Shown here: in pieces, positions 2,176 to 53,315 of the stretch
Position numbering within the stretch: position 1 is the first letter of the stretch
Layout: each line of letters begins with the position of its first letter
Assembly (NCBI GenBank): GCA_046045965.1
Contig: JBJOKS010000030.1
Span: 1-53,315, forward strand
Direction: 5' to 3'
Length of the DNA: 53,315 bases
Origin: Cyanobacteriota bacterium
Lineage (GTDB): Bacteria > Cyanobacteriota > Cyanobacteriia > Cyanobacteriales > Nostocaceae
Position numbers and translations under genes: made by a program
Notes under the pieces: model-generated
Databases searched by the model: none
The model's input: only the letters and a program-made list of their open reading frames with translations
What the model was told of the DNA's origin: nothing

Positions 2176-2180
2176 TAATT

Positions 2181-33199: not shown

Positions 33200-33350
33200 G
33201 GCTATAGTACCCAAGTCAAGTTGAAAACAATGGTTAGTAAACTCTGACTTAACCCGCATCTGTGGTGGAAAGCTTCGCGTTAGTACATCCAGGTGAACTG
33301 AATACCCAACTTACCTGGAGAGAAGTATACAGGTCAACTCTCCTATAGCT
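33200..33350 (+). ncRNA. Putative small structured RNA with two GAA/AGUA loop-E hairpins
   Basis: Closing stem ggctatag/ctatagct; hairpin aagtca-agtt[GAAAACAATGGTTAGTA]aact-c-tgactt; variant gtg[GAA agc ttcgc gtt AGTA]cat. Confidence 0.6.
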
Positions 33351-38562: not shown

Positions 38563-38564
38563 AT

Positions 38565-39980
38565 TTATGGAGCTATTTCCATTATTACCATATAGTTAGG
38601 AGTAACTGAACTAACAGTTAAACTACCACCACCAGTTTGATTTACTCTAATGCTGTAAAGTCTAGAAGTTGTTGAATCAGCAGTTGTGTAATAAACAACA
38701 GTTACAGGCTCAGGATAAGCATCACTTCTTCTACCAATATTATTTTGATATTGCGTTTTAATTGTACTATCTTGATATACAGCTAAACTATAGTAATGAG
38801 TATTATTACTGGTAGATTTAGTTACACCTCCTATAAATGCTGTTATGTAAATAGTTGAAGTAGCACTTAAAGGAGTTATGTTAGCTTGAATAACAGAAGA
38901 CCAACTTCCATTAGTATTTACAATCCAACCAGGAACAGATGCAGTTACTACTTGTATTACTTTACCTCCTCCACCAGCAGAAGGAGTTTGTGGTTCCCAT
39001 CTGGTATTAGCAGTGTTATAAGTTAATACTTGACCATTTGTAGGGGTTACATTATGTACAGTTCTACTTTGAAGTTGGTTAGCATTCCATTGAGCAGTAG
39101 TGTTTCCTACCTGGGCAGCAGTAACACTATGTGGATTACTTGTATTACCAGTATGTGAAGTTAAATCAGTAGTAGAGGGTACACTAAGATTTGTTCTAGC
39201 AGCAGCAGCAGTAGAAGCTCCTGTACCCCCTTTTCCAATAGAAAGAGTATTTCCTATATTGTTTAAATTTAGACTTGATTCAATTACATCTAAATCAATT
39301 TCAGAATTAGCAGCGTCATCTACAATACTCATTCTGATGCTGGGAACTAACTTTTTAAACTCTAAATCAGTTCCTACTTTTTGTTTAAATACACCTATTC
39401 CTATACCAGTAAGTCCAACATTACTTGCTGTGTTAACTTCACCAGTAGAAGGTAATGTTTGATTAGTCCATTCTCCAGTAGAATTATTATAAATTAATGC
39501 TTGACCATTAGCAGGTGAAGTAATAGTTACATCAGTTAAACTATCTAAATTAGAAGCACCAGCAGAAACAGTATCAAATTCTAAATTAGTGGTAGCAGCA
39601 TTATATTTTAAAACCTTACCATCACCTATAGCAGAATCATCTACATTTATTCCTCTAATTTTATCTGCATTCCATTGAGCAATATTATTACCTACCTGAC
39701 TAGCAGTAACATTGTGAGGATTAGATGTATTTGCAATGTGATTACTAATAGTAGAATCATCTATAGTTGTGCCTTGAGCTATTAAATCCCAATCTAATGC
39801 AGTTGCACTAGGTTCTTCACTTGTAGTTTTGTTAGCTCTGTAACTAGACCCTTCATGAAATACACCTTCATTGCGCCTATAAACACTAGCATTATCCCAA
39901 TCACCTAACCAAATAACAGAGATACCATTAACAGTAGGAATAGGACTAGAAGGAGTGCTTGGATTAATTTCTATAGCCAT
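38565..39980 (-). CDS. Virion fibre / receptor-binding protein
   Basis: Duplicated H..NTSNPH.VTA.QVG...AQWNA blocks, GQ(A/V)L.YN repeats, KGGTGASTAAAARTNL and a C-terminal GKVIQVV domain. Confidence 0.8.
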   Translation of the reverse strand: MAIEINPSTPSSPIPTVNGISVIWLGDWDNASVYRRNEGVFHEGSSYRANKTTSEEPSATALDWDLIAQGTTIDDSTISNHIANTSNPHNVTASQVGNNIAQWNADKIRGINVDDSAIGDGKVLKYNAATTNLEFDTVSAGASNLDSLTDVTITSPANGQALIYNNSTGEWTNQTLPSTGEVNTASNVGLTGIGIGVFKQKVGTDLEFKKLVPSIRMSIVDDAANSEIDLDVIESSLNLNNIGNTLSIGKGGTGASTAAAARTNLSVPSTTDLTSHTGNTSNPHSVTAAQVGNTTAQWNANQLQSRTVHNVTPTNGQVLTYNTANTRWEPQTPSAGGGGKVIQVVTASVPGWIVNTNGSWSSVIQANITPLSATSTIYITAFIGGVTKSTSNNTHYYSLAVYQDSTIKTQYQNNIGRRSDAYPEPVTVVYYTTADSTTSRLYSIRVNQTGGGSLTVSSVTPNYMVIMEIAP

Positions 39981-39981
39981 A

Positions 39982-40989
39982 TTAATACCCCTTTAAAGTT
40001 CCTCTGATAAAGATTTGTGTGTCAGCTTGAGTACCTGTAACTTCTATTTTGATAATATTTGTATTCACCAATGAATAACTTTTCACAATAGTATTATCAG
40101 TAGTCAAAGTACCAACATCTTGCCAAGCAATACCTACTAATTCTTTGAGAATAAAACTGACATTAGCTGTAGCAACAACCTCAATATCTAATCTCTTATA
40201 ATTTTTAACATCAATGAATCCACCTATGTAAGTTTGTACATTTACAATAGTTGGAATACCAAAGGAATCATTATCTAAATCTAACTGGAATAAAGGTACA
40301 GTGTCTTCCAATTCAGTTTGATGATCAACTAGATAAGAAATAGTAAATTGTCCTGCTGAAGTCCATGCACCATTAGTAGCTGACTTTTCAATTAATGCAG
40401 CTTTATCTTCTAATTGATATTGTCTTTCAAGTTGCTTTAACTCAATAGCAGTTAATCTTTTCTGATCACCAATAGTTAAATCTTTTTGTTCTTCCCTAGC
40501 AATTAAAGCTAACTTATCTTCCAAACTGTCCTTACAACAAGTTTTAGAAGCTCCATTAGCAATCAAATCTAAAACATCTGATTGAGTCCAGAATTGAGCA
40601 GCAGTTAATGTACCTAACTTGTGAATAGTAATATAAGCTTTCAGATGTAGAAAATAATCTGTTTGTGCTTTTTCTATTAATTCCCTGTCTCTAGTAATGG
40701 AAGTACCAGAAGCAGAATCATATTTAACTACAGGGTCACTAACAAAGTAATATTTAACCCCAAATCCTATTAAGTTCCAAGCATCAATAAAGTCTGCCTC
40801 TAATGAAGTAATAGCTCCACTAGACACAGTAGAAGTTATATCAGTTAAACCTTTAGCTTGAAGATCAGATATTACAGATAGTGTAAGTAAATTAGCTCTA
40901 TTACTATCAACAATGCTAGTGGTAGTGTCATTTAAAGCAGGGCGTAAATAGTTATTAAAAAAGTCATTCCAACTAATTGATACTGGCAT
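39982..40989 (-). CDS. Putative virion (head-completion/adaptor-like) protein
   Basis: Position after the capsid gene; helical N-terminal half and beta-rich C-terminus; no firm motif. Confidence 0.45.
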   Translation of the reverse strand: MPVSISWNDFFNNYLRPALNDTTTSIVDSNRANLLTLSVISDLQAKGLTDITSTVSSGAITSLEADFIDAWNLIGFGVKYYFVSDPVVKYDSASGTSITRDRELIEKAQTDYFLHLKAYITIHKLGTLTAAQFWTQSDVLDLIANGASKTCCKDSLEDKLALIAREEQKDLTIGDQKRLTAIELKQLERQYQLEDKAALIEKSATNGAWTSAGQFTISYLVDHQTELEDTVPLFQLDLDNDSFGIPTIVNVQTYIGGFIDVKNYKRLDIEVVATANVSFILKELVGIAWQDVGTLTTDNTIVKSYSLVNTNIIKIEVTGTQADTQIFIRGTLKGY

Positions 40990-41007
40990 AATTTTAAATT
41001 CATATTT

Positions 41008-41679
41008 TTAAACTAATCTGTCAGGAAATCTTTTTACATAATTGATAATAGTATTCTTGGGTAGACTTTGAATGCTACTACTAGAGGTGTATTGTTGATA
41101 AGTCAAACTAGAAGCAGTGACTTTAACATTTGCATTATTATTAAAAGCTGGATTAACTGTAAAAGCTTCTGACAAGTTTTGTAAAAATAATCCTGACTCA
41201 TCATATTGATAAAAATCAGCAAGCCCTCCATAAGTTTTAGAAGTACCTATATGAAAGAAGAAACTTTCTTTAAAAGGTTGCTGTCTAGGTCTACCCCATG
41301 AACCAATAGGATAAGTATTAGGATACCAATATTCAGGGTCTATGTGGGTTATTAATGTTTCATTATCAGATAACTCTAACAAGCTAGTTGCAGGTGAACT
41401 TATATTAATACCTGAACCAAATCTGTTAATTATATTAGCAGTGCTGTTGATATATCCTGGAATGAAATAAGCAGCATAAACAGTAGGACTACCATCTAAA
41501 ACACAAGTGGCATTATCTACATTTATAGTTACTCCCCCAGCAGTTTGTAATTCATCTCTGTTAGTTAAAAATGATAACTCTGGAACATAAACTAATCCAG
41601 AAAACTGATTGATAATTGATGCTAATAACAAATCTTTTTCTAGTGATTTGTACCTTTCTAAATCTGCAAACATAATCAT
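41008..41679 (-). CDS. Hypothetical structural-module protein
   Basis: 223-aa ORF co-oriented between the capsid and adaptor-like genes. Confidence 0.55.
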   Translation of the reverse strand: MIMFADLERYKSLEKDLLLASIINQFSGLVYVPELSFLTNRDELQTAGGVTINVDNATCVLDGSPTVYAAYFIPGYINSTANIINRFGSGINISSPATSLLELSDNETLITHIDPEYWYPNTYPIGSWGRPRQQPFKESFFFHIGTSKTYGGLADFYQYDESGLFLQNLSEAFTVNPAFNNNANVKVTASSLTYQQYTSSSSIQSLPKNTIINYVKRFPDRLV

Positions 41680-41703
41680 TTAAGGGGGAATTTCACCCCC
41701 TAA
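41680..41703 (-). terminator. Hairpin immediately after the major capsid gene
   Basis: Minus strand ttagggggtgaaattccccctta; a typical attenuating position after MCP, but with no U-run. Confidence 0.45.
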
Positions 41704-41717
41704 TTTTTAGGAATTAA

Positions 41718-42791
41718 TTAAAGATTAGTAGGTACAGAATAGCTGGTAGCATTCAATTGTAGAACTGCACAAGCACCTCTATGGTTAGGAGCATAACCCC
41801 AGCCGTCACTCATCACAGTATTCTCTAAAGCAAAGCTAGATTTAACTTCAGTTTGTAACCCAGCTAAACTTGCAATAGCAGGAATTCTACTGAGGAAAGG
41901 TGCTTTGTTAGCTCCTCCATCAACACCACAACAAATTGCATAACCTACAGGAACAATGGGTGTTTTAACAATAGGAACATTACTAATGAAACCAACTAAA
42001 CCCTCCCAAGGAGATAGCTGTCTCATTCTTTCATTTGTAACTCCACCAGTAGCAATTTCAAGGTTACGTCCAATTTGGTTTTCTGCTGGTACAAAACCAC
42101 TTAAAGCTTCCAGAGAATATTCATAATCAGAAATCCATATTTCTAATTGCTTGTAACCATGATGTCTAATTTTATCAATTAGCTTTGTGCGTATCTCAGA
42201 TACAGTAGGACTACCAGCAACAGCAACAGCATTGTAATGTTGTAAATCTCCAGGTTGGAAACTATAGCCATTTACAGCAGGTGCAGCAACAGAACTATCA
42301 GAATTATAGAAAGGAATAGTAGTAGTTTGATATTTGTTAATTGAGTCAATTACTACTCTGTTAGTGTTGTTGAAAATAGCTTGACGTAATGCACTAAATC
42401 TAGCTTTTTGGAAAGAGGTTAATTTAGCTTGTACATACCCAGCCAACTCATCAGAAGTCATCATTTTAACTGCTCTAGTAGAAAGAGTTAATGCAGTAAA
42501 AAACTCTTCAAAAGGAACTTCTTGAGTGTAGTCCCAAACAGTAGAGCGAGAACTAGGTCTAGCTGATTCAGTTAAACTTTCAAGTTCTTCACCATCATAA
42601 TATTTGACAACTTTCTGAGGGGTACTAATTGTTTCTACTAATGGAGAAAAGAACCTAGAGTTCATGTCATTGTAGAACATCATATCCTGGTCTAATTCTC
42701 GCAGGATAGATACTACAGATTGATTATCAATAGTTACTAACTCAGTATCATTAGAGCTAAGTTCACCAAAAAAAGTAGTTGAATAAACCAT
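41718..42791 (-). CDS. Major capsid protein (probably HK97 fold)
   Basis: 357 aa; position after portal, scaffold and cement genes; LTESARP E-loop-like and VGFISNVPIVKTPIVPVGY C-terminal patterns. Confidence 0.75.
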   Translation of the reverse strand: MVYSTTFFGELSSNDTELVTIDNQSVVSILRELDQDMMFYNDMNSRFFSPLVETISTPQKVVKYYDGEELESLTESARPSSRSTVWDYTQEVPFEEFFTALTLSTRAVKMMTSDELAGYVQAKLTSFQKARFSALRQAIFNNTNRVVIDSINKYQTTTIPFYNSDSSVAAPAVNGYSFQPGDLQHYNAVAVAGSPTVSEIRTKLIDKIRHHGYKQLEIWISDYEYSLEALSGFVPAENQIGRNLEIATGGVTNERMRQLSPWEGLVGFISNVPIVKTPIVPVGYAICCGVDGGANKAPFLSRIPAIASLAGLQTEVKSSFALENTVMSDGWGYAPNHRGACAVLQLNATSYSVPTNL

Positions 42792-42818
42792 ATATTTTTA
42801 GATAATTAATTATTTGAA

Positions 42819-43232
42819 TTAAACAGAAATTTTAACTTTGTTAGCAGTGAGAGCAATCCCAACTTTCTTAGTTCCTGTACCTGCTACAATCCCAGCAGCA
42901 CCAGCATAGACAACTGTGCCAGGAGTCAACCCTAAAGTAGTACCTTTATTTTCAATAATGCAATCACTATCAATTGCTAAAGTTGTACCTGCTTTTCTAC
43001 TGTATCTAGCCACTCCTATAGGCTCAAGAGAAGCAGTACATAGGATTGCTTGACCTGAAGAATTAACAGCTACTACTGCACCTTCTGGAATGTCTACTGC
43101 ACACACTAAATTAACAATAGAACCATCCAAATGAGATGAGTTAATAAATCTATAAAGGACTGTATTGTAAGCTACGTTTTGCATAATTTTAAAATGTATA
43201 AATAGATAAATTAAATTTAATAACCACGCCAA
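42819..43232 (-). CDS. Capsid cement/decoration-like protein
   Basis: Small G/A-rich beta protein (GAVVAVNSSG, PIGVA, LTPGTVVYAGAAG, KVGIAL); start may be the internal MQNVAY. Confidence 0.6.
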   Translation of the reverse strand: MAWLLNLIYLFIHFKIMQNVAYNTVLYRFINSSHLDGSIVNLVCAVDIPEGAVVAVNSSGQAILCTASLEPIGVARYSRKAGTTLAIDSDCIIENKGTTLGLTPGTVVYAGAAGIVAGTGTKKVGIALTANKVKISV

Positions 43233-43597
43233 GGTTTAACTTTGCGTTCTTCTTCAGCAGAAGTTTTACTAACAGATACTCCAGGCTTTGTAACCATAGA
43301 TTTACTATTATTAGTAGAGTTTTTAGTTAAAGCAGCTTGCAATGCAGTCTGTATTTTAGGAACTAAATTCTCTTTTAACTCTGCTTCTAAAGCTTGCTGT
43401 TTGGCTAACAAATCTGAAACCACTTCTTCTTGGGTAGAACCAGTTGGTTTAATACCTAACAGTTTAGCCATCCTTTGAAAATCAGGTTTAGTTTGAGCTA
43501 ATGCAGCCTCATAATCAATCTCAGGACTGGGAGGTGTAATAGCCTCTAAACCTAAATCTAATTCTTGGTTTTCTATTACTTGTGTTTGCTCATCCAT
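43217..43597 (-). CDS. Putative scaffolding protein
   Basis: Acidic N-terminus, coiled coil and basic C-terminus; lies between portal and capsid genes. Confidence 0.55.
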   Translation of the reverse strand: MDEQTQVIENQELDLGLEAITPPSPEIDYEAALAQTKPDFQRMAKLLGIKPTGSTQEEVVSDLLAKQQALEAELKENLVPKIQTALQAALTKNSTNNSKSMVTKPGVSVSKTSAEEERKVKPWRGY

Positions 43598-43599
43598 AG

Positions 43600-44952
43600 T
43601 TAGTCAATTGCGCTATCTTGAAATAATGTACTGTCATCAACATTAGGTTTATCTTTAGAGTCAGTCAAAGCAGCAGAATATTGAATGTTTAGACCTTTTT
43701 CATTATCTAACTGTTCTAGCTCTTTTAATGCTTCCTCTTCAGTTAAACCTTCAGTTTCAATTAGGTATCGCTTCCTAGAAATTAACTTATGTCTAACAGC
43801 TTCAATTTGCAGTTTCTTATCTTGTAAATCTCTAGGCATCATGTCAGGTAATTCAACCCTAAATGGAATGTCAATACCTAACTCTAGGAATATAGTTTTA
43901 ATAGCTGAAATTAAATGGTTAGCTCTGGTTAATGTACTTTTTTGCAATGGTTCATACAAAACAGAAAGAGAAGATGAACTAGAAGCTGACCTAGCATTCT
44001 GTAGCTCTAAAACCATTACTCCAGTTAGATTATAAATATCTTGGAGAATGATTAATCTTTGCCTTTCTAAGTATGGGCTATCAATTGGTTGTAGGTATCC
44101 AATTTTAGGAACTATCCCCAATTCAGCAGCAGCATTAGAGATAGGAAGATGGAGAATTGAAGCACCATCATTAGTAAATGCTGTTTGGAAAGCTGCACTA
44201 CCTGTAGGTGAATCTACACTCTCAAGTTGACTTGAATTAGTTCTACCAATAATAGCAGGTGCAGATGTTCCAATTGTGTAGACTTGAGGTTTATGATGTT
44301 TGCCATTAAGATTAATTCTAGACCTGACTTCACAATACTCAAGCTGCAAATGAATTAATCTTTCAATAGCAGACTGAGCAGTGCGTCCATCCAAGGAATT
44401 CACTAACCTAACTATAGGAATGTGATCACCTAAGTCTACTGGTTCACCTCCATCTTGTTTAACAAAATATCTATAAGATGGTAAGTTGAATAAATCTAAA
44501 CTTGACTGATTCTCTGTGGGGAGAGTCAGATAATGTTCTACCTTTACCTTTTTGTAAGTGTTAGTAACTGGGTCATAAATTTCTCTATTTTCCTTTAGGT
44601 ATACAACCTTCAATGGATCAAGAGGGTCAACCTTTACATCATCAATATCAATTGTTCTAATATGACGTAAGTTGCCATCAGAAACCTCAATATAAGCCTC
44701 TCCAAAGATGGGAACATCAGTGTAAACATCATTCAGTAAACTATAAAGTTTAATCTGCTCTAATTGAGAATTTAACTCTGATTGCTGCTCAGGATTGATA
44801 GCTAAGAATTTAATTTTCTTTGCAAACCCATCACCCAGTAAAAATGATTTAAGTTGCTCAACTACTAGCTGAATTAATTTAATTGGTAACTCTCTATTGC
44901 CAGCAGGATTTATACCTTGATAAGCATCCTTTAATTCTTGTTTGCTTGCCAT
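43600..44952 (-). CDS. Portal protein
   Basis: 450 aa, first gene of the head operon; FGEAYI, IPIVRLVN...SAIE, SASSSSSL and LISRKRYL...TEEEALKELEQL patterns resemble SPP1-type portals. Confidence 0.78.
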   Translation of the reverse strand: MASKQELKDAYQGINPAGNRELPIKLIQLVVEQLKSFLLGDGFAKKIKFLAINPEQQSELNSQLEQIKLYSLLNDVYTDVPIFGEAYIEVSDGNLRHIRTIDIDDVKVDPLDPLKVVYLKENREIYDPVTNTYKKVKVEHYLTLPTENQSSLDLFNLPSYRYFVKQDGGEPVDLGDHIPIVRLVNSLDGRTAQSAIERLIHLQLEYCEVRSRINLNGKHHKPQVYTIGTSAPAIIGRTNSSQLESVDSPTGSAAFQTAFTNDGASILHLPISNAAAELGIVPKIGYLQPIDSPYLERQRLIILQDIYNLTGVMVLELQNARSASSSSSLSVLYEPLQKSTLTRANHLISAIKTIFLELGIDIPFRVELPDMMPRDLQDKKLQIEAVRHKLISRKRYLIETEGLTEEEALKELEQLDNEKGLNIQYSAALTDSKDKPNVDDSTLFQDSAID

Positions 44953-45169
44953 TTAAAAATAAGAATTTACTTATATTTATTATATACATTAATTTGGCTG
45001 ATGAAAAGTAGGCTGAATGATAAGAAGTATAGATAGTTGGTTTAATATGTATGTTCTGTACCAGTAGGCTGGGGCAGGTGACTTATGGCGGGGGGTGTAA
45101 TAAAGTTGTCTATAATATTCAAGGTGGCAGACAGCTACCCTTTTTAATTGAATCATGCCCTTAACATTC

Positions 45170-46123
45170 AGTGGTCTTAGGATTGTGTGCGGAACTTATT
45201 CTGCCTACTTAGTAGGATGTGTGCCAGTTCCTATTCTGCCTGAGACCAAAGGTGTTTAGATGAAACCATTGAGACTTCTACATGAAAGACTCTTAGGAGG
45301 CTGACTAGTGTGGAGGTGTAGATAGTTGACTTAGTGAAAACTTCTTAGGAAGCTGATTAGCTTTGTTAACTGTCTGCAACATAGGTTGATGGGATTAAGT
45401 TCTCGCCCTGTGTTCTACAATGCGGATTAGTCTGTAGCCTATAGAAGGAATTGTAACAGTCCCAAAAGACCTCTATGGTTAGGGAAATGTTTAAGCCTTC
45501 TATACTCTCTGCAACTGTAACTCCCTCAGAAGACCCTAGTGGTTAGAGGTTGTAGTTTAAGGTAGAGAGCTGAATGGTCTGTTGCTGAAAGCTTTAGTTT
45601 AGCTAATATCTTACAGTGAAAACAATGGTTAGTAACTGTGAGGTACATGACTGCGGTAAGTTGGGAAAACAATGGTTAGTACCTAATTGCCAGAAGCAGC
45701 ATGAGCTAAACTAATTGGGCTAGTAAGCAGCAGTTGGGTGTATACTCCCTAAGTTTATAGTTAGTCACTCTTTATTCTGTTCTTCTTTAAGAGACTGTTT
45801 AGCTTCTCACCTGTAGTTATCTAAGGTCACTCACCTAGTGCTGAACGCTTCAGTGGTAAGACCTCAGTTAGCCCCTCACTAGAAGAGATATCTAGGGAAC
45901 AGCTAGGTAAACTTAGAGTACAGCTCTAGGTAACTCACTACTGAGCCTACTAAATAGATGCTTCAGTAGTCAGCCTGTAGTGTCTAGATATACAGTCTAC
46001 TTAATCTTCACTCACTAAGAGACAGTGGGAACAGTAAACAGCACATACAGGAATTAACAATCTTTAGTTTGCAAACAATCTTTATTAACACATCTCTTCA
46101 ATAGCTGTTAATAGAGTTTTTTT
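45170..46123 (+). ncRNA. Putative large (~0.9-1 kb) modular structured RNA
   Basis: ORF-free; consecutive stems with G-U pairs on the + strand, duplicated covarying modules and three loop-E motifs; TATAAT at 45111-45116 and a hairpin plus U7 at 46080-46123. Confidence 0.75.
46080..46123 (+). terminator. Putative intrinsic terminator closing the structured region
   Basis: ctttattaaca/tgttaatagag stem followed by T7. Confidence 0.5.
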
Positions 46124-46171
46124 AACAATAGACAGGCACATCAATAATCAGTAAATAAGGAAATCACAAAT

Positions 46172-46612
46172 ATGAATACATACTTTCAAGAAGCCTTAAT
46201 GGTAGTTCAATCAGAACAGTTTAGTAATGAGTTCAAGTCAACAGTTAAGTTTATTCTAAGATTAGTTAACTTATTGTTTTTAGTAATAGCTGGTTTATTT
46301 ATTTTAGTTAGGGGATTTTTCTGTAGACAGCCTAAGCATAAACAATTAACAGAAGTAACAGAAAACAGTAATGAGTCTACTAATGAGGACAGCAATGATG
46401 TAGAGACTTTAGAGGAGCAGGATATTAGTGATTCTAGTTTAGAGAATCAGACTGAGGTTGATAAATCAGGGAGGCATAAAGAGTTAAAGTTAATGAAGGC
46501 TGCTCAACTTAGACAGCTATGTGGGGCATACTCAATTGACTATAAAAATAAACTTACTGCTATTGAATCAATACTTTCACATGAATACTGTGATGTAGAA
46601 ATTCCATTCTAA
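46172..46612 (+). CDS. TM-anchored protein with acidic linker and a C-terminal HeH/Rho-N-like domain
   Basis: TM at about aa 28-50; ELKLMKAAQLRQLCGAYSI...KLTAIESIL; RBS aagga; ends EIPF. Confidence 0.6.
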   Translation: MNTYFQEALMVVQSEQFSNEFKSTVKFILRLVNLLFLVIAGLFILVRGFFCRQPKHKQLTEVTENSNESTNEDSNDVETLEEQDISDSSLENQTEVDKSGRHKELKLMKAAQLRQLCGAYSIDYKNKLTAIESILSHEYCDVEIPF

Positions 46613-46627
46613 GTTAACTCTTTTTAT

Positions 46628-46655
46628 TTAGGGAATAAATAGTTATACTCCCTAA
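46628..46655. terminator. Hairpin between convergent genes
   Basis: ttaggga...tccctaa stem. Confidence 0.5.
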
Positions 46656-46665
46656 GTTTATCTAG

Positions 46666-46806
46666 CTACTCATCTTCATGAGGATTATAATTGGGGTTGC
46701 TCAACTTAGCAGACTTATCTAAGTTCTTCTTTAGTTTCTTCCAGCTAGGGTCTTCAACAGTATTACAATACTTATTTGGTTTCTTATCTTTATTATCTTC
46801 TGTCAT
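46666..46806 (-). CDS. 46-aa hypothetical protein (below the ORF-track cutoff)
   Basis: MTEDNKDKKPNKYCNTVEDPSWKKLKKNLDKSAKLSNPNYNPHEDE*; converges on the hairpin. Confidence 0.4.
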   Translation of the reverse strand: MTEDNKDKKPNKYCNTVEDPSWKKLKKNLDKSAKLSNPNYNPHEDE

Positions 46807-46913
46807 AACTAATCCAATTTTATTACTACTTAATTAAATAACTACATGACATCTCTATAATAATAGTATATGTAGTTAATAATGTAGTTATTTATAAATC
46901 AGTTAACTAAATA

Positions 46914-47186
46914 ATGGAAATTCAATTTATAGGTGGTTTAAGGGTTTCTCATAAAGAACTAAGTAAATTGTTTAATGTTAAGCCCTCTCAACTTAAGAAA
47001 ACTATAGAACAGTATCATAAACACTTTGAAGACTATGGTTTCCTTTATGAATCAGCAGGTGAATATTACTTGAGCTATCCTCAATGTGAGGTTGCTGTTC
47101 TCTTTACTGTATCAAGTAACCTTGAGGCTAGAAGTTTATTCAGTAAACTAAACAAAGAGTTTGCTAACTTTAAGAAATCTTATTGA
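46914..47186 (+). CDS. Rha-like phage regulatory protein
   Basis: VSHKELSKLFNVKPSQLKKTIEQY...FEDYG...YYLSYPQC pattern. Confidence 0.55.
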   Translation: MEIQFIGGLRVSHKELSKLFNVKPSQLKKTIEQYHKHFEDYGFLYESAGEYYLSYPQCEVAVLFTVSSNLEARSLFSKLNKEFANFKKSY

Positions 47187-47617
47187 TTGATTGCTCTGCG
47201 TACAGGAAACCAATATAGTAGGCTGTAGTATAAGTGTACTATGCGTGATTACTAAAGTGAAGTATACTAAATATGGCACACTAAATTCAGCAGACTATCT
47301 GTAAGTTAACTAAGCTCCAGTCACCTAAATGTCAGTCAACTAATCTCAAGCAAACTCAATTCAGGCAACTAATTCTGTAGATTAGAATCACTCCACTAAA
47401 TCAAAGGCAACTGAATAAGTTATCTCTTCATTAAACAACTTAAATTTAGTTGTCTTATTGTCAAAATTTCATATTTTACACTTTACCAAGTTTTACTTCT
47501 CTGCAAGTTTTAGTCATCTGTTATTTTCTTTTATTAGGGTTAGATATATATAGGGTTTTATGTAGCGGGCTGTTTGTTAAATGCCTAGATTATGCGGGTT
47601 TTATTGTAGTGAGCTAA

Positions 47618-47646
47618 TTGACTTGTATTCTATTAAATGTTATATT
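47618..47646 (+). promoter_or_regulatory. Sigma70-type promoter for the RHH-antirepressor-Rep operon
   Basis: TTGACT, 17-bp spacer, TATATT, with extended -10 TG at 47638-47639. Confidence 0.7.
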
Positions 47647-47701
47647 ATATATAGAGTTCATTAGAACTCACTTAATAATATAACTAACTAAAATAAAGAT
47701 T

Positions 47702-47854
47702 ATGCGACTAGATAGAATTACTTCAATCAGACTATATGCAGGTCATGGTGAACAACTACAAAAGATTGCTGATTTGAAGGGGCTAGATAAAGCAGACATC
47801 ATCAGAACAGCAGTCAAAACATATTTAGACAATTACAATAGTCAATCCCTATAA
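47702..47854 (+). CDS. Ribbon-helix-helix (CopG/Arc-like) repressor, 50 aa (not in the ORF track)
   Basis: MRLDRITSIRLYAGHGEQLQKIADLKGLDKADIIRTAVKTYLDNYNSQSL*: beta strand TSIRL followed by two helices. Confidence 0.8.
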   Translation: MRLDRITSIRLYAGHGEQLQKIADLKGLDKADIIRTAVKTYLDNYNSQSL

Positions 47855-47929
47855 ATAAATAGTCTCCTTATTGAGGGAGACTTAATTAAATTACCTTTTA
47901 TAAATTAACCAATATATATATATTCTAAT

Positions 47930-48736
47930 ATGACTAACTTAAATATTTCTATTCAATCTCAGATTAAAGCTACAGTTGAGGCAGGTGGACAATTTCCAGT
48001 AGACTTTGAATTAGCTTGGCAATGGTTAGAATATTCTTCTAAGGGTAATGCTAAAAGAACTTTGACAGCTAACTTTGTAGAAGGGATAGATTATTCCTCA
48101 CTTATCACTATTGAGAAGCGAGAAATTGGGGCTACCAGAGTTGAAGAAATCTATTTAACAGCAGACTGTTTCAAACAACTTGCTATGCTTTCAGGTACAC
48201 CTAAAGGAAAGGAAGTTAGATTATACTTTATTGAATGTGAGAGACAATTAAAAGCTATTTACTCTGGTGATTATTTAGCTACATTGAAAGCTTTAGTGGC
48301 AGCACAAGAAGAGAAGCAGGCATTATTATTGAAGGCTGCCCAAGCTGAAGAGAAAGTAATTGAGTTAGCTCCTAAAGCTGAAAGTTGGGAACGACTTTGT
48401 GGCACTAATGGACTAATGACTATTGGTGAGGTTGCTAAGAATTTGGCTATCCCTGGTTTGGGTCCAAATAAGTTATTTCAATTGCTAAGAGATAAAGGAT
48501 ACATATATTATGATTATCAAGGCTGTAATGTTCCTAAATCTACTCTTGTAGAGAAAAAATATATGAAAAGTGTAGAGAAATATGACTTTAAAAGAGATAA
48601 AAAATATTCAGTATGTGCAGTTACTTATAAAGGTTATGAGTTTATAGTCAGATTGTTAAAAAGACTTGGATATATTTCTGATACTCCTGTTCCAAATGCA
48701 GGCGTGTTACCTATACCTTATCAAGTAGCAGCCTAA
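47930..48736 (+). CDS. Phage antirepressor (AntA/B-like N-terminus plus KilAC/ANT C-terminus)
   Basis: FPVDFELAWQWL...FVEGIDY...KGKEVRLYFIECE; ELAPKAE...IGEVAKNL...GPNKLFQLLRDKGYI. Confidence 0.88.
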   Translation: MTNLNISIQSQIKATVEAGGQFPVDFELAWQWLEYSSKGNAKRTLTANFVEGIDYSSLITIEKREIGATRVEEIYLTADCFKQLAMLSGTPKGKEVRLYFIECERQLKAIYSGDYLATLKALVAAQEEKQALLLKAAQAEEKVIELAPKAESWERLCGTNGLMTIGEVAKNLAIPGLGPNKLFQLLRDKGYIYYDYQGCNVPKSTLVEKKYMKSVEKYDFKRDKKYSVCAVTYKGYEFIVRLLKRLGYISDTPVPNAGVLPIPYQVAA

Positions 48737-48742
48737 ACTAAT

Positions 48743-48780
48743 AATGGAAGAAGGTCTGTCTCCTAAAACCCTCTTCCATT
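48743..48780. terminator. Hairpin after the antirepressor gene
   Basis: aatggaaga...tcttccatt stem. Confidence 0.5.
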
Positions 48781-48859
48781 TACTACAAAAATAACATATA
48801 ATACTCACCTGAATAGTAATATTATACTACAAAAATACTTATAATACAATTGAATAAAT

Positions 48860-50911
48860 ATGCAAAGAATTAAACTAAATCAACAATACCTCAACTTTAA
48901 GAATCCTAATACTAGAATTTTAGTAATTGAATCAGGTAAAGGAACGGGCAAAACTAGATGGATGGAAGATAACCTAGCTGAAATTCCCGCTTTATTTTTA
49001 AGTCATAGAATAGCATTAACAAAAGATTTAGCTAACCGCACTGGGTCTGCTCATTACTTAGATAACTCTGCTCATCAGTCAAAAAGGTTAGTAATATGTG
49101 TTAACTCTTTAATGAGTTTACTTCATTCTGATACTCACAAAGGCGCAACTATAGTAATTGATGAAGCTACCCAAGTATTAAGACATCTAATAGGGGAAAC
49201 TTGTTCAGCTAACAGACAAGAAATACTGAATACTTTAGGTAACAAAGTATATAACTGCTCACAGTTAATATTGCTCGATGCTGACATGAATCAGGAGACA
49301 CTAGACTACTTTGTTAAATTGTTCAATTACAAGGATGTGCAAGTAACTCCAGAAGACATTACTTGGGTGACTAATAGTTATCAGCCTAAAAAGAGAGTAT
49401 TTAAAGAGTTTCCCACTTCAGAAAGCTTGCAGTTTCATCTTATTAATGACTTAAAAGCTGGCTTAAACTTATATATTGCTGCTGATACTCAAGCTAGAGT
49501 GGAAACAATTAACTCCCTGATTGATTCTGCAAAGATAGAACTTAAAGGAAAGCTAACTGTACATGGTTCTAACTCAGCCCAAGAGAAGCAAGTAGACTTT
49601 ATTGCTAACGTCAATGAGTTACAGAAAAACTACCAAGTTGTTATAGCTTCTCCAAGTCTGTTTACAGGCGTTGATATTAACCAACCTCACTTTGATAAAG
49701 TATACCTGTTTGCTGATGGGGCTTCTGCTACTGCCACTGACCTATTACAAGCTTCAGCAAGAGTAAGAACTGTATCAGAAGTTAACTTCTGGATCACTTC
49801 AAAGAAAAATAATGAGCTTACCTCTTGGGAAGAAATCTTAAGTAACAAGGAGAGAGTTGCCTTTGGTACAGGTTGGATGAATAGTGTTGACTCTGAGTTA
49901 AGAGCAGCAAGAGGAGGAGATGTTTGGGCTTGGGACTTTGATATAGCTACTGGAACTTCAAAGGTTAGAGACAGTGTGTATATGACTATGTTCTGCCAGC
50001 TACAAGCTCTACAGAATAAATCTCTTAATGATTTACATAGTTCCTTTGTTGAGGCTGCTGCTAGAGAAGGTAAAGTTGTAACACATAAACCTACTGAATC
50101 AGAGATTAAGCAATTAGAGATAGTTAAAGAAGCTACAAAGATTGTTAGAAGACAAAATAAGCAAGCTAAACATCAAGCAATCATAAATGCTCCTGACCTT
50201 ACTCCAGAGAATTGGTTCTTATTAGATACTGATCCTGATGTACTGTCTGTACAAGAAGCTAACTCTCTTAAGAAACATAAGTTGCTGAAGTTAATTGGAG
50301 GCTTAACTGAGTATTTACCTGAAGTAGTGAAGAATGAATCTAAGTGGTTTAAAGCTATTTACTATCAAGGGTTACTGAATAGAGACTTAGAAGATTTGGC
50401 TCAACAAGATGAACTAGATGTTAGAACTAAAGCTCCTAGTGACCGTAAGTACAGAGTTAAGACAGTAAACTTGATTAGAGAGTTCTTAAAGAGAGTTAAC
50501 TATGAAGGTTCATTACTAAGAGGTGAAGAGTTATCAGCTTTCTATTCTGAGTCTGAGGTTAATGCTCCCCGCGCTAACCATAGTTGGTTTACCACTCATG
50601 CTATTGAGTTTAAAGAACTTCTGAACTTATCTGTACCCAAGAATGTAGAAGATAAACCATTTCAGTTTATTCAATCAGTATTAAGTGTACTAGGACTGTC
50701 TACTACAGATAAGCAAGTGACTGTGCGTACAGGGGATGTGATGGTTGCTATGGGTTCTCTAGGGGTTTATCCAACTAAAGATGCAGATAAGAAAATCAGA
50801 ATCAGAAAGTATTATATTGACTCTTCTTCAGTTGATATAATGAACTCTATTTTGGCAGCTAGAGAAGCTAAATACAGTAAACAAGAGGAGTTAGTAGAGT
50901 TACCATTTTAG
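48860..50911 (+). CDS. Origin-binding SF2 helicase / replication initiator (CyRepA-like helicase domain)
   Basis: SGKGTGKT, LSHRIAL, ICVNSL, VIDEATQV, LLDAD, IASPSLFTGVDI and QASARVR motifs. Confidence 0.85.
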   Translation: MQRIKLNQQYLNFKNPNTRILVIESGKGTGKTRWMEDNLAEIPALFLSHRIALTKDLANRTGSAHYLDNSAHQSKRLVICVNSLMSLLHSDTHKGATIVIDEATQVLRHLIGETCSANRQEILNTLGNKVYNCSQLILLDADMNQETLDYFVKLFNYKDVQVTPEDITWVTNSYQPKKRVFKEFPTSESLQFHLINDLKAGLNLYIAADTQARVETINSLIDSAKIELKGKLTVHGSNSAQEKQVDFIANVNELQKNYQVVIASPSLFTGVDINQPHFDKVYLFADGASATATDLLQASARVRTVSEVNFWITSKKNNELTSWEEILSNKERVAFGTGWMNSVDSELRAARGGDVWAWDFDIATGTSKVRDSVYMTMFCQLQALQNKSLNDLHSSFVEAAAREGKVVTHKPTESEIKQLEIVKEATKIVRRQNKQAKHQAIINAPDLTPENWFLLDTDPDVLSVQEANSLKKHKLLKLIGGLTEYLPEVVKNESKWFKAIYYQGLLNRDLEDLAQQDELDVRTKAPSDRKYRVKTVNLIREFLKRVNYEGSLLRGEELSAFYSESEVNAPRANHSWFTTHAIEFKELLNLSVPKNVEDKPFQFIQSVLSVLGLSTTDKQVTVRTGDVMVAMGSLGVYPTKDADKKIRIRKYYIDSSSVDIMNSILAAREAKYSKQEELVELPF

Positions 50912-50935
50912 TTGGGGTAAGGGCAGCTAACCCAA

Positions 50936-51407
50936 CCCCCTTTCTAGCAGCCTGCACAACCCTTTCTCTTTATATAAAATAATAATTTAGGTTGTGCAGC
51001 ATTACTAAGTATAGAGTTAATTTAGAGTATAATTTATTAGTAAGTATTACTTAGTTAAATGTAAAGTAAATATAGAGGTAATCTAAGTTTAGAGTAAATC
51101 TTCTTATCTCTATACTGCAAGAAGGTTTTTTATAAAAACAGATTTCCTTTTGAGATAGAAAAAATACTAACTTTAAGCTACCTCTTTCAGTTATAGACTG
51201 AAACTTATTAGTTACACAGTCCCCCTTCTAGCAGACTGCACAACCTAAATTATTTATTTATATAAAGAGAAAGGGTTGTGCAGCATTAGTTAATATTTAG
51301 TTAATTAATTACTAATGGTAACAGTAAACCAAGTTTAGCTAATCTCAAGTTATAGGTAATCTAAGTTTAGGGTAAATCTTCTTACCTTTATACTGCAAGA
51401 ATGTTTT
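50936..51407. repeat. Duplicated origin-like unit with an inverted hairpin loop (putative ori)
   Basis: CTGCACAACC-N28-GGTTGTGCAG at 50952-50999 and 51236-51283; second shared block aggtaatctaagtttag...tatactgcaagaa at 51076-51123 and 51354-51401. Confidence 0.85.
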
Positions 51408-51502
51408 ACGGGCTGTAGTTTAGCCAAGTGGCTACTATAAATTACACACAAAATTAGTGACCAACATCACACAAACCTTTAAAACCATGCTTTAGTGTTG
51501 GT

Positions 51503-51781
51503 TTGTTAATTAGCCAGGTGTATATTATGACTGATAAACAAAATCAAGAAACACTTAAATTAGACCCAGTGAAAGAAGAAGTGGGTACTAAATTACAACA
51601 AGTTCTCCAGTTGCTAATAGAAGTACAGGCTACTCGTATAGATGGGGATCTACCTTATAGTGCTAATAAGGCAATAGCTAATATAGTGAGGAATCCTCCA
51701 GAGTATACTGCTATGGTGGATCACTTATTAGACAAGACTGGAGAACTTATAGATTATATAAACAATGGAGAAATAAACTAA
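51503..51781 (+). CDS. Hypothetical protein (likely start MTDKQ at 51527)
   Basis: Helical ORF; aggtg upstream of ATG 51527. Confidence 0.55.
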   Translation: MLISQVYIMTDKQNQETLKLDPVKEEVGTKLQQVLQLLIEVQATRIDGDLPYSANKAIANIVRNPPEYTAMVDHLLDKTGELIDYINNGEIN

Positions 51782-51810
51782 CTAATATCTCTAACTTTTT
51801 AATATCAAAA

Positions 51811-51852
51811 AACCTGATGAGTCAACTTATAAAAATAGCTGCTCATCAGGTT
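51811..51852. terminator. Hairpin between convergent small genes
   Basis: aacctgatgag...ctcatcaggtt perfect 11-bp stem. Confidence 0.6.
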
Positions 51853-51859
51853 ACTTCAA

Positions 51860-52090: not shown

Positions 52091-52110
52091 TTGACTATTC
52101 CTCTTGACTT

Positions 52111-53235: not shown

Positions 53236-53245
53236 GGTAATTTCC

Positions 53246-53285: not shown

Positions 53286-53315
53286 AAAGGGTGTGAAAAC
53301 AGATATTCAGCCCTC

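What the first reader, a model, noticed from the sequence alone, without database searches (positions are those of the whole stretch)
45170..46123. Large modular non-coding RNA candidate (~1 kb) in a cyanobacterial prophage-like element
Seen: 1.2 kb with no ORF of 60 aa or more, between the divergent portal and TM-HeH genes, folds almost continuously on the + strand. Stems include tggtcttagg/cctgagacca (45172/45248), acttctaca/tgtggaggt (45274/45317), gtagatagttgac/gttaactgtctgc (45318/45377), tatagaagg/ccttctata (45440/45504), ctctctgc/gtagagag (45505/45569), ctgttgct/agcagcag (45579/45733) and ctgttta..ttctcac/gtgggaa..taaacag (45795/46041). Most non-Watson-Crick stem positions are G-T on the + strand (A-C on minus), the signature of selection on a + strand RNA. 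Modules come in pairs with conserved loops and different stems, i.e. internal covariation. A TATAAT at 45111 and a hairpin plus U7 at 46080-46123 bracket it. Known: large phage-associated RNAs exist (GOLLD, ROOL, phi29 pRNA), but I do not recognise this as any of them. Inference: a possibly undescribed large RNA acting as a scaffold, protein sponge, anti-defence RNA or packaging RNA.
Basis: partly seen in the sequence, partly recalled or inferred. Interest (0 to 1): 0.92.

Follow-up and report, generated by a model that had tools for sequence, protein, structure and literature searches.

The report
Large structured prophage RNA in cyanobacteria
A small prophage of filamentous cyanobacteria carries a roughly 600-base, heavily folded non-coding RNA built from repeated hairpin modules, which is abundant in environmental RNA samples and matches no described RNA family.

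Summary
Window 44953-46171 has no ORF of 60 aa or more and no coding signal. The + strand of 45140-45760 folds far better than shuffles (z -5.6; minus strand -0.9). The 3' part, 45761-46125, does not (z -0.65). The gap lies between the portal gene and the early genes of a 20-kb or larger prophage integrated at a tRNA-Met gene. Syntenic homologues occur in five other Nostocaceae genomes and one metagenome contig. Hairpin modules recur in pairs, with invariant internal loops and covarying stems. The three-way junction is 95.9% paired, with double changes at 26 of 51 pairs. G-U outnumbers A-C, which points to the + strand. In two metatranscriptomes from different studies, contigs over 45140-45720 reach depth 526-1052 and 16-56. 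The flanking phage genes reach 0-9, and DNA runs are flat. Rfam 15 has no match. I read it as a new, abundant, modular structured RNA carried as an insertion in the early leader of one lineage of these prophages. It appears to be expressed while late genes are silent. Its function is inferred only: most likely a multivalent scaffold or sponge. The main rival is a cis-acting leader that controls early-gene read-through. Strand and ends were not measured directly.

The parts
45036..45100 (+). Conserved 5' block upstream of the RNA. Invariant runs in the six-genome alignment include GGGGCAGGT and TGGCGG. Probably the shared promoter or control region of the early side.
   Evidence: Alignment A2. 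By eye it is also present in G285 and in the RNA-less relative G101. Its function was not tested.
45111..45116 (+).
   Evidence: Sequence. The promoter scan did not call it. By eye, A/T-rich -10-like hexamers sit at the same place in G157 and G053.
45123..45145 (+). Six-pair hairpin followed by CTTTTT. It sits directly before the point where the RNA contigs begin.
   Evidence: It is the only terminator-like site found in 44800-46400. By eye, the hairpin is kept with different letters in G086 and G285. RNA contigs of two studies begin at 45140 and 45145 without a loose end.
45172..45248 (+).
   Evidence: MFE fold and repeat D16. The full hairpin is aligned only in G086. By eye, related GTGTGCG...TATTCTGCC units occur elsewhere in G053, G148 and G285.
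45274..45377 (+). Two A-type modules, at 45274-45317 and 45318-45377. Each is an outer stem, then GAAA, a short CUC/GAG hairpin, and ...AYUAG.
   Evidence: All 9 regex matches from 5 loci were aligned (A6). They are 90.5% paired against 26-47% in slid controls, 11 of 13 pairs show changes on both sides, and 0 of 500 shuffles reach the score.
45379..45413 (+). D-type hairpin (GGUUGAU, an inner hairpin, then GCCC).
   Evidence: MFE fold. Two copies of the same module, with a compensated inner stem, sit at another place in G157b (by eye).
45440..45569 (+). Two B-type modules, at 45440-45504 and 45505-45569. Each is an outer stem, AAYUGUAAC, an inner hairpin, and GUUUAAG.
   Evidence: Repeat D3. 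RNAalifold on 3 sequences gave 35 pairs, 7 of them with compensatory change. The same module type is differently nested in G157 and G148. Metatranscriptome contigs carry a one-module variant, shown by loose ends at 45469 and 45555.
45579..45733 (+). Three-way junction. Its base helix and both arms, C1 (about 45610-45642) and C2 (about 45655-45691), each carry a GAA ... AGUA internal loop around a 3-bp helix.
   Evidence: A4, 6 sequences: 51 pairs, 95.9% paired against 26-39% slid, and 26 pairs with change on both sides. All 15 C-type hairpins (A3): 83.8% paired against 28-40% slid, and 11 of 11 outer pairs covary. Model R1 scores the metagenome locus L066 at 60.6 bits.
45740..45754 (+). Invariant motif GTATACTCCCTAAGT, which marks the 3' edge of the structured domain.
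   Evidence: It is invariant in A2. TACTCCCTAAGT with at most 1 mismatch lies on this strand in the portal-upstream gap of 12 of 13 elements (WIN plus 11 of the 12 other loci), at +180 to +312 in the five RNA-less elements that carry it (absent from G194) and at +647 to +872 in RNA-bearing ones. The local fold is not better than shuffles.
45761..46060 (+). Sequence-conserved 3' region with five CTCAC motifs, CGCTTCAGT repeats and ACAG repeats. It is not demonstrably structured and may be the leader of the early operon.
   Evidence: Conservation in A2 and A5. z -0.65. One RNA contig of run X6 runs on to 45946.
46073..46123 (+). Terminator-like hairpin (11 pairs) followed by T7, 48 nt before the 146-aa gene.
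   Evidence: Inverted repeat I1 and fold. A hairpin plus a run of 7 to 9 U stands at the same place in G086, G157a, G157b and G148, and a weaker one in G053. The scan tool did not call it because the stem is A/T-rich.
46647..46657 (+). Second exact copy of ACTCCCTAAGT, after the 146-aa gene.
   Evidence: 3 matches with at most 1 mismatch; 0.91 expected by chance. In five other elements the second copy lies just before the terminator instead.
33206..33299 (+). Second, weak site with two more C-type hairpins, near the left prophage end. One carries the identical 17-nt loop.
   Evidence: R1 scores it at 20 bits, E 0.008 over 144 kb. The local fold is not better than shuffles on either strand. It was not found in the 20-kb stretches of the 12 related elements.

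Best explanation
Shown or strongly supported (about 0.9): 45140 to about 45740 encodes a + strand, non-coding, highly structured RNA of about 600 nt.
- It consists of at least eight hairpin modules of four or five recurrent types, mostly in tandem pairs. Each type has an invariant internal-loop sequence and freely covarying stems.
- It lies in a prophage of 20 kb or more, integrated at a tRNA-Met gene, between the late operon (portal, capsid, tail, terminase; minus strand) and the early operon (146-aa membrane protein, small RHH repressor, antirepressor, replication protein; + strand).
- Compared with relatives that lack it, it looks like an insertion into the early leader. It sits between a promoter-like block shared by all elements and a motif (TACTCCCTAAGT) found in 12 of 13.
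- It is abundant in natural RNA samples in which the late and early phage genes are close to silent. I take that as expression from the resting prophage, with transcription stopping before the early genes.

Inferred mechanism (about 0.4): the RNA acts in trans as a stable multivalent scaffold or sponge.
- Its repeated identical internal loops are the working surfaces.
- These loops would bind several copies of one or a few proteins, or dock onto each other.
- The number of modules changes by duplication and unequal recombination.
- The partner and the benefit to the phage or lysogen are unknown.
For: Folding and strand:
- z -5.57 on the + strand against -0.94 on the minus strand for 45140-45760.
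- G-U against A-C at paired positions: 22 v 9, 17 v 4, 12 v 1.
- A hairpin plus a U run on the + strand stands at the 3' end in 5 of 6 elements.

Not coding.

Conservation and synteny:
- DNA matches to the gap lie upstream of the portal gene in G086, G053, G157 (two copies) and G148.
- G285 was found by nhmmer.
- The same architecture scores 60.6 bits in metagenome locus L066, between two other phage genes.

Covariation.

Modularity:
- Modules are gained, lost, duplicated or nested among relatives.
- Expressed variants differ in module content, shown by loose ends and a replacement joint.

Expression:
- RNA run X5 has contigs 45140-45450 at depth 1052 and 45421-45720 at depth 526. Its other pieces on 36000-53315 are at 2.3-9.0.
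- RNA run X6 shows 56 and 16.4 against 2.0-4.2.
- DNA runs X3 and X4 are flat, with bin depths of about 0-9.
- X5 and X6 belong to different studies.

Insertion reading: the position of the TACTCCCTAAGT motif, and G101, where the block is followed at once by the motif.

No Rfam match.
Against: - Only contigs were laid, so strand, ends and true level are not measured. The runs were chosen because they hold this stretch.
- No protein partner is known, and no gene is specifically linked. The 146-aa and 223-aa genes co-occur with the RNA, but so does the whole tail and terminase module of that lineage.
- The position, directly upstream of and co-oriented with the early operon, fits a leader as well as a gene. 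In L066 there is no terminator between the RNA and the next gene.
- Minus-strand folds of some relatives also beat shuffles (G086 z -5.78, which timed out after 4 of 13).
- The loop E assignment rests on a recalled consensus, not on a 3D test.
- The family is rare: 4 of 388 other family genomes by DNA with a real match, plus G285.
Confidence: 0.5

Rival explanations
1. Cis-acting leader or immunity RNA. The structured domain is part of the 5' leader of the early operon. A constitutive promoter fires in the lysogen and transcription is stopped before the early genes, at the U-rich tract after the motif or at the 46073-46123 terminator. The folded RNA and the repeated motif set how much reads through, as in P4 CI RNA immunity, or it modifies the polymerase as the put RNAs of HK022 do.
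For: - The RNA is co-oriented with and directly upstream of the early genes, which include an RHH repressor and an antirepressor.
- RNA depth is high while downstream genes are at 0-9.
- A conserved terminator stands before the first early gene.
- Two direct copies of the motif lie in the leader.
- In L066 the element sits as a 5' UTR without a terminator.
Against: - Relatives manage the same early region without the 600-nt domain.
- Eight or more modules with copy-number variation are far more than known attenuators need.
- No conserved stretch in the domain is complementary to the motif. The best duplexes have z -0.3 to -1.5 and lie at different places in 7 elements.
- A weak second pair of C-type hairpins lies where no + strand gene follows.
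Confidence: 0.3
2. RNA-only assembly. Like ROOL and GOLLD, the RNA forms a homo-oligomeric cage or lattice through its repeated motifs, without protein.
For: - It is a large, ornate, prophage-borne RNA of unknown function with repeated motifs.
- The abstract of the bioRxiv preprint 10.1101/2024.12.08.627333 (search listing only) reports cryo-EM structures of natural ornate RNA-only complexes, GOLLD among them.
Against: - No similarity to either family.
- No self-complementary loops were seen.
- Module number varies between relatives, which fits poorly with a fixed symmetric assembly.
Confidence: 0.1
3. Packaging or structural RNA of the virion, analogous to phi29 pRNA.
For: - It lies next to the portal gene.
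- The element is small and encodes portal, capsid, tail fibre and large terminase genes.
- A 223-aa structural-module gene co-occurs with the RNA.
Against: - It is abundant while portal, capsid and terminase genes are at depth 0-7 in the same RNA runs.
- No match to the pRNA model.
- Relatives with the same portal and capsid genes (G101: 80% and 85% identity) lack it.
Confidence: 0.04
4. A DNA-level element (replication origin, pac site or single-strand origin), or neutral decaying sequence that is only transcribed by accident.
For: - Intergenic position between divergent operons.
- The relative G101 has iteron-like direct repeats in its gap.
- The 3' third has same-strand CTCAC and ACAG repeats and no significant fold.
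Against: - Compensatory changes keep the helices.
- G-U bias and a 70 kcal/mol strand asymmetry.
- Invariant strand-specific loop sequences.
- RNA depth is 10-100 times that of the flanks.
- This rival may still hold for 45761-46060 alone.
Confidence: 0.05

Closest known systems
GOLLD and ROOL (large ornate RNAs of phages and prophages, Rfam)
   Same: Hundreds of nucleotides long, many helices, carried by prophages, no known function, found as abundant or conserved non-coding stretches.
   Different: No match to either covariance model at gathering score, or at E up to 10 over 44900-46250. It is not next to tRNA arrays. It is built of tandem pairs of a few module types and restricted to Nostocaceae elements. 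Self-assembly was not tested.
Multi-hairpin protein sponges such as CsrB and RsmZ
   Same: Repeated hairpins with an invariant motif on variable stems, copy number varying between relatives, and high abundance.
   Different: The motif is an internal loop (GAA/AGUA and others), not a GGA hairpin loop. Several motif types share one RNA. No partner protein is identified. As far as I recall, CsrA is not typical of cyanobacteria.
P4 CI RNA and P1 c4 RNA (phage immunity RNAs made from the leader of the operon they control)
   Same: Encoded upstream of and co-oriented with the early or antirepressor operon. The transcript is abundant while downstream genes are off. Direct sequence repeats lie in the leader.
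   Different: Those RNAs are under 100 nt and act by base pairing to the repeats. Here no conserved complementarity to the repeated motif was found, and the RNA is about 600 nt.
Bulged-G (loop E, sarcin-ricin) motif
   Same: GAA on one strand opposite AGUA on the other, flanked by helices. This holds in all 15 C-type hairpins and, in 5 of 6 sequences (GAC in G148), at the base of the junction.
   Different: This is a sequence-level match to a recalled consensus. The 15 hairpins were picked by a pattern that contains these letters. No 3D evidence exists. Here the motif is reiterated three times in one junction.
phi29 pRNA
   Same: A phage non-coding RNA encoded beside head and packaging genes.
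   Different: No model match. About three times longer. Expressed while late genes are silent. The host element integrates with a tyrosine integrase.

Membership tests
Any Rfam 15 family (including GOLLD, ROOL, OLE, HEARO, raiA, pRNA, 6S, tmRNA, riboswitches, ribozymes) | Score at or above the family's gathering threshold against its covariance model | tested here: not met
   0 matches in the whole window. 0 in eight related loci, 62.6 kb. At E up to 10 on 44900-46250 there were 4 matches of 14-22 bits against thresholds of 38-96, all implausible families.
Structured non-coding RNA (general) | Fold more stable than dinucleotide shuffles | tested here: met
   45140-45760 + strand: z -5.57, 0 of 20 shuffles as good. 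Not met for 45761-46125: z -0.65.
Structured non-coding RNA (general) | Compensatory base changes among homologues | tested here: met
   A4: 26 of 51 pairs. A3: 11 of 14. A6: 11 of 13. Slid controls are 26-47% paired against 84-96% observed. The sequences are kin and partly paralogues, so these are not independent events.
Structured non-coding RNA (general) | Transcribed, on the predicted strand, with defined ends | tested here: inconclusive
   The stretch is present at high depth in 2 RNA libraries of 2 studies. Strand and ends cannot be read from contigs. The two contig sets begin at 45140 and 45145, which is a weak hint of a 5' end.
Bulged-G / loop E motif | GAA opposite AGUA between two helices (consensus recalled) | tested here: met
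   The letters are invariant in 15 of 15 C-type hairpins, which were selected by a pattern containing them. Both flanking helices are supported by pairing.
Bulged-G / loop E motif | Characteristic non-canonical pairs and S-turn in 3D | not testable with these tools
   No RNA 3D tool or probing data were available.
Intrinsic terminator at the 3' end | Stable hairpin directly followed by a U run on the transcribed strand | tested here: met
   WIN has 11 pairs plus U7. G086, G157a, G157b and G148 have about 10 pairs plus U7-U9. G053 is weaker. The stems are A/T-rich, so the consensus scan missed the WIN one. Termination itself was not measured.
P4 CI-type immunity RNA | A segment of the stable RNA complementary to repeated target sites in the same leader | tested here: not met
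   Best duplex between the motif and the 5' domain: -13.6 to -15.3 kcal/mol, z -0.3 to -1.5 against shuffles, at non-homologous places in 7 elements.
Temperate phage (context) | Integrase, att duplication, and head, tail and packaging genes | tested here: met
   Integrase E 1e-42, large terminase 8e-20, major head protein 1e-25, antirepressor 5e-36, portal weak at 5e-4. A 54-nt copy of the 3' end of a tRNA-Met gene lies at 33001-33054, and the whole gene is on another contig.

The most novel reading that the evidence does not exclude
This is a new class of large ornate bacterial RNA. It is a prophage-borne, lysogeny-expressed RNA built by reiterating a few internal-loop modules (three loop-E-like GAA/AGUA units in one junction, plus other types). 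It works as a multivalent platform that titrates a host or phage factor, or self-assembles, and so sets the lysis-lysogeny balance or superinfection immunity of bloom-forming cyanobacteria. Its module number evolves by unequal recombination and tunes that capacity.
Probability: 0.3. Interest if true: 0.88.

Novelty: new variant of a known kind. Interest (0 to 1): 0.78.

Why it matters
- Bacterial non-coding RNAs above about 500 nt with strong covariation are few, and each has opened a question of its own (OLE, GOLLD, ROOL, HEARO, raiA).
- This candidate comes with three things such candidates often lack:
  - a clear genetic setting, in the early leader of a small temperate phage;
  - natural relatives with and without the RNA;
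  - evidence of very high abundance in environmental RNA while the rest of the phage is quiet.
- The named hosts are culturable: Cuspidothrix, Nodularia and Nostoc strains are named. Deletion, pull-down and structure work are therefore feasible.
- If the RNA governs lysogeny or immunity, it bears on phage control of bloom-forming cyanobacteria.
- If it is a scaffold of reiterated loop-E units, it is a new design principle for natural RNA architecture.

Tried and rejected
- **Rfam.** Nothing at gathering score, and only chance-level hits at E up to 10.
- **blastn against 50,697 phage records.** No match.
- **Portal-guided scans.** No relative in viral contigs or metagenome contigs.
- **15-mer motif scans.** 5 viral and 119 metagenome stretches matched. 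nhmmer with the core profile was run on the 93 loci L044-L136. It kept 1 of the 80 fetched metagenome loci (L066) and 0 of the 5 viral loci, plus L047 among the 8 genome loci.
- **Two-hairpin pattern in viral contigs.** 120 stretches matched, and 0 of the 80 fetched loci matched model R1 at E up to 0.1.
- **R1 over genomes.** In 151 sampled family genomes it found only G000 and G053. The sample left out the other known carriers.
- **L066 RNA as DNA query over 401 phylum genomes.** Only short matches. The best (G077, 40 nt) scores 12.9 bits with R1, and the rest fall in an A/T-rich stretch.
- **Whole-gap fold z-scores for all 13 elements.** The script timed out after 4. The + strand gave -2.3 to -5.1 and the minus strand +0.6 to -5.8, so z alone does not settle the strand.
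- **RNAalifold on 45733-45892.** Essentially no consensus structure. By eye, small CUCAC hairpins form in shifting registers. I make no claim from this.
- **Small hairpin presenting UCCCUAA as a loop.** The local fold is no better than shuffles, so I dropped it.
- **P4-like complementarity.** Not found.
- **Loop-to-target idea.** TTAGGGAG with at most 1 mismatch occurs 37 times against 40.9 expected.
- **Second site at 33206-33299.** Its fold is not better than shuffles.
- **Partner by co-occurrence.** Confounded by lineage. The downstream gene of L066 is unrelated to the 146-aa gene.
- **No RNA contig was laid on 45947-46123, or in X5 beyond 45720.** Related strains differ there, so this says nothing about the 3' end.
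- **Adapter-like loose letters, table 7.** One flanks an RNA contig at 45720 and two flank a portal-gene contig. They would fit + strand RNA if the library is of the usual stranded type. That rests on recalled adapter orientation and an unknown protocol, so I treat it as a hint only.
- **Literature.**
  - Four full-text searches found no description of this RNA.
  - In PMC3610870 I read 12 passages found by term search.
  - In PMC10690425 five terms had no occurrence.
  - I did not open the supplements of either, and a TSS table could bear on a related strain.
- **Earlier findings of this scan.** None.
Full report
**What is at the coordinates.**
- Window 44953-46171 lies between a 450-aa gene on the minus strand (43600-44952) and a 146-aa gene on the + strand (46172-46612).
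  - The 450-aa gene has a weak portal match, PHROG E 4.7e-4.
- No ORF reaches 60 aa.
- Each of the six frames of 45140-46125 holds 25-35 stops.
  - Substitutions against the closest relative fall 58/56/56 on the three phases.
  - Only 3 of 16 indel runs are multiples of three.
- G+C is 0.41 in 45001-46000, against 0.30-0.34 in the flanking kilobases.

**More than chance, but not over the whole length.**

| Stretch | Strand | MFE (kcal/mol) | Shuffle mean | z | Shuffles as good |
|---|---|---|---|---|---|
| 45140-45760 | + | -209.0 | -169.7 | -5.57 | 0 of 20 |
| 45140-45760 | minus | -139.6 | -133.4 | -0.94 | 3 of 20 |
| 45761-46125 | + | -85.9 | -82.7 | -0.65 | 25 of 100 |
| 45761-46125 | minus | -97.1 | -91.1 | -1.11 | 16 of 100 |

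- So the finding is a well-folded domain of about 600 nt, followed by a 3' region of about 360 nt whose structure is not demonstrable.

**Context.**
- The surrounding 20 kb is a small temperate phage.
  - On the minus strand it carries large terminase, tail fibre, major head protein, a scaffold or cement-like protein, and portal.
  - On the + strand it carries a 146-aa membrane protein, a 50-aa RHH repressor (PHROG E 6e-6), an antirepressor and a replication protein.
  - A tyrosine integrase sits at the right end.
- A 54-nt copy of the 3' end of a tRNA-Met(CAT) gene lies at 33001-33054, and the whole gene is on another contig. The prophage therefore runs from about 33.0 kb to beyond the window's end.
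- Named relatives are Cuspidothrix issatschenkoi, Nodularia chucula and Nostoc MAGs.

**Relatives.**
- The portal gene was found in 12 of 388 other genomes of the family.
  - The 12 full loci examined, like the window, have an ORF-poor gap upstream of it. Its extent to the first sizeable + strand ORF is about 0.7 to 1.7 kb.
  - G239, which holds only a partial portal gene, and the second G148 contig were not examined for this.
- DNA similarity to the window's gap is limited to five loci in four genomes.
  - These are G086 (78% over 937 nt of the query), G053, G157 (two copies) and G148.
  - G113 and G158 gave only 24-39-nt matches at E about 0.008, which I discount.
- Two further homologues were found.
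  - nhmmer found part of the G285 gap.
  - It also found one metagenome contig (L066), where about 400 nt of the same architecture sits between two other phage genes.
- The remaining six elements (G101, G194, G198, G185, G268, G155) share portal, capsid and neighbouring head genes. They have a different tail and terminase module, no 146-aa gene and no such RNA.

**Structure and covariation.** The domain is a chain of hairpin modules.

| Test | Set | Paired | Slid controls | Pairs changed on both sides | Shuffles reaching the score |
|---|---|---|---|---|---|
| C-type hairpins | 15 matches from 7 loci (A3), 14 pairs | 83.8% | 28-40% | all 11 outer-stem pairs | 0 of 500 |
| A-type modules | 9 matches from 5 loci (A6), 13 pairs | 90.5% | 26-47% | 11 of 13 | 0 of 500 |
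| Three-way junction 45579-45733 | 6 sequences (A4), 51 pairs | 95.9% | 26-39% | 26 of 51 | 0 of 500 |

- To avoid choosing examples, I took every match of a loop-only pattern and then asked whether the flanks pair.
- C-type hairpins read GAA, a 3-bp helix with a 4-5-nt cap, then AGUA.
- A-type modules read GAAA, a short hairpin, then ...AYUAG.
- B-type modules (45440-45504 and 45505-45569) fold alike in three relatives and are nested differently in three others.
- Two cautions apply.
  - The sequences are kin and partly paralogues.
  - The junction structure was derived from the same alignment it was scored on.
- Modules are shuffled among relatives.
  - The first hairpin is aligned only in the window and G086.
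  - G157b carries a second junction nested around the first, and two copies of the D-type hairpin.
  - G285 has A-type but no C-type modules.

**Strand.**
- At paired positions G-U outnumbers A-C: 22 v 9 (A3), 17 v 4 (A4) and 12 v 1 (A6).
- The energy gap between strands is 70 kcal/mol over 621 nt.
- The invariant loop sequences are strand-specific.
- A hairpin followed by 7 to 9 U stands at the 3' end on the + strand in 5 of 6 elements, with a weaker one in G053.
- Fold z-scores alone do not decide. In G086 the minus strand scored -5.78 against -3.14 for the + strand (4 of 13 elements before the time limit).

**Expression.**
- The run search returned 21 runs, of which 19 hold at least part of 45100-46130.
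  - Two are on record as metatranscriptomes from different studies, holding 0.56 and 0.48 of the sampled words.
- I laid these two and two DNA runs on 36000-53315.

| Run | Kind | Depth on the RNA region | Depth elsewhere on 36000-53315 |
|---|---|---|---|
| X5 | RNA | 1052 (45140-45450); 526 (45421-45720) | 2.3-9.0 for the pieces listed, several without any differing letter |
| X6 | RNA | 56 (45145-45469); 16.4 (45555-45597 joined through a replaced junction to 45736-45946) | 2.0-4.2 |
| X3, X4 | DNA | about 1-6 | 0-9, flat across the stretch |

- The stretch is therefore strongly over-represented in RNA, and only in RNA.
- The late genes are close to silent, which I read as expression from the resting prophage.
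- Limits:
  - these are contigs, which carry no strand, no ends and only one depth figure each;
  - the runs were found with this very stretch;
  - 57 further pieces were not listed.
- The two RNA contig sets begin at 45140 and 45145 with no loose end while the DNA goes on. The tool calls this a weak hint of an end. It lies in the U run just after a conserved 6-pair hairpin (45123-45145), not at the spot expected from the TATAAT at 45111.
- Loose ends at 45469/45555 and 45597/45736 show expressed variants with one B module instead of two, and with a different junction.

**An insertion in the early leader.**
- The motif TACTCCCTAAGT (at most 1 mismatch) lies on the + strand of the gap in 12 of 13 elements.
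  - It starts 180-312 nt from the portal start in the five RNA-less elements that carry it (it is absent from G194).
  - It starts 647-872 nt from the portal start in the RNA-bearing ones.
  - A second copy lies about 250-320 nt further on, just before the terminator. In the window the second copy lies after the 146-aa gene.
- A 5' block (GGGGCAGGT ... TGGCGG) is shared by the six aligned gaps and, by eye, by G285 and G101.
- In G101 the motif follows this block directly.
- The simplest reading is that the 600-nt domain, with its 5' hairpin, was inserted between the early promoter region and the motif in one lineage.

**What it is not.**
- No Rfam 15 family matches the window or eight related loci at gathering score. 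At E up to 10 there is only noise.
- It has no match among 50,697 phage records or in IMG/VR by the portal gene.
- Four literature searches and two papers, read only in passages, gave no description of it.

**How it most likely works.**
- Shown: a conserved, covarying, abundant RNA made of reiterated modules.
- Inferred: the invariant internal loops are the functional surfaces.
  - GAA opposite AGUA around a helix is, as I recall it, the bulged-G or loop E consensus, a common protein- and RNA-docking motif.
  - It occurs three times in one junction.
  - The exact 17-nt loop recurs in a weak second site at 33206-33299.
- Repeated identical sites on variable stems, with copy number varying between relatives, are the signature of multivalent scaffolds and sponges. 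I give this about 0.4.
- The main rival, at about 0.3, is a cis-acting leader that determines how much transcription reaches the early genes.
  - It explains the position, the terminators and the silence of the downstream genes.
  - It does not explain why relatives do without the domain.
  - Nor does it explain why no conserved complementarity to the repeated motif exists.
- Self-assembly like ROOL or GOLLD, a packaging role, and a DNA-level element are less likely, for the reasons given under the rivals. The DNA-level reading remains open for 45761-46060 only.

**Verdict.** This is a real feature, well beyond chance, and very probably a new family of large structured prophage RNA. The claim 'about 1 kb, folded continuously' should be trimmed to about 600 nt. 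Strand, ends and function still need direct measurement.

Noticed in passing
window 33001-33054 (minus strand): A 54-nt copy (98% identical) of the 3' end of a tRNA-Met(CAT) gene. The complete gene is on contig C2 of the same assembly. It is probably the att duplication that marks the left prophage end.
   Followed up: yes
window 33206-33299 (+): Two further C-type hairpins near the left prophage end, one with the identical 17-nt loop (R1 20 bits). The local fold is not better than shuffles. A DNA-run loose end at 45635 resembles this sequence, which suggests recombination between the two sites or with a related element.
   Followed up: partly
window 47702-47854 (+): A 50-aa ORF matching RHH/CopG-like phage repressors (E 6e-6), directly upstream of the antirepressor gene. 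The layout resembles arc-ant of P22 (recalled). It was found in all 12 related elements by tblastn (50-75% identity).
   Followed up: partly
12 of the 13 elements examined; window 45744-45754 and 46647-46657: TACTCCCTAAGT is kept on the early strand of the portal-upstream gap in 12 of 13 elements, whether or not they carry the large RNA. Its role (RNA signal, operator or promoter part) is unknown.
   Followed up: partly
L044 (G101) 1700-3420, minus strand: The RNA-less relative with the third-closest portal (80% identity) has a 95-aa ORF and several sets of iteron-like direct repeats in its 1.7-kb gap. This may be an origin of replication.
   Followed up: no
Gaps of G194, G198, G185 and G268 (L045, L046, L048, L049): The RNA-less elements share their own conserved sequence in the gap, for example 589 nt at 72% between G198 and G268. 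I did not examine whether this is another RNA, small genes or DNA sites.
   Followed up: no
L018 5250-5560 (G157b): One of the two copies of the element in genome G157 has a second three-way junction nested around the first, plus two D-type hairpins. This is a natural duplication of modules.
   Followed up: partly
L066 1224-1700 (minus strand): A metagenome contig carries about 400 nt of the same RNA architecture between a 733-aa gene (PHROG 30979, unknown function) and an unrelated 284-aa gene. A terminator-like hairpin stands before the RNA and none after it.
   Followed up: partly
window 45036-45145: A conserved block is followed by a hairpin plus a U run on the + strand, immediately upstream of where the RNA contigs begin. 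It could be a short separate transcript, an attenuator or a processing signal.
   Followed up: no
window 50941-51226: One RNA-run contig and one DNA-run contig join 50941 to 51226, skipping 284 nt after the replication gene. This is a deletion variant in related strains.
   Followed up: no
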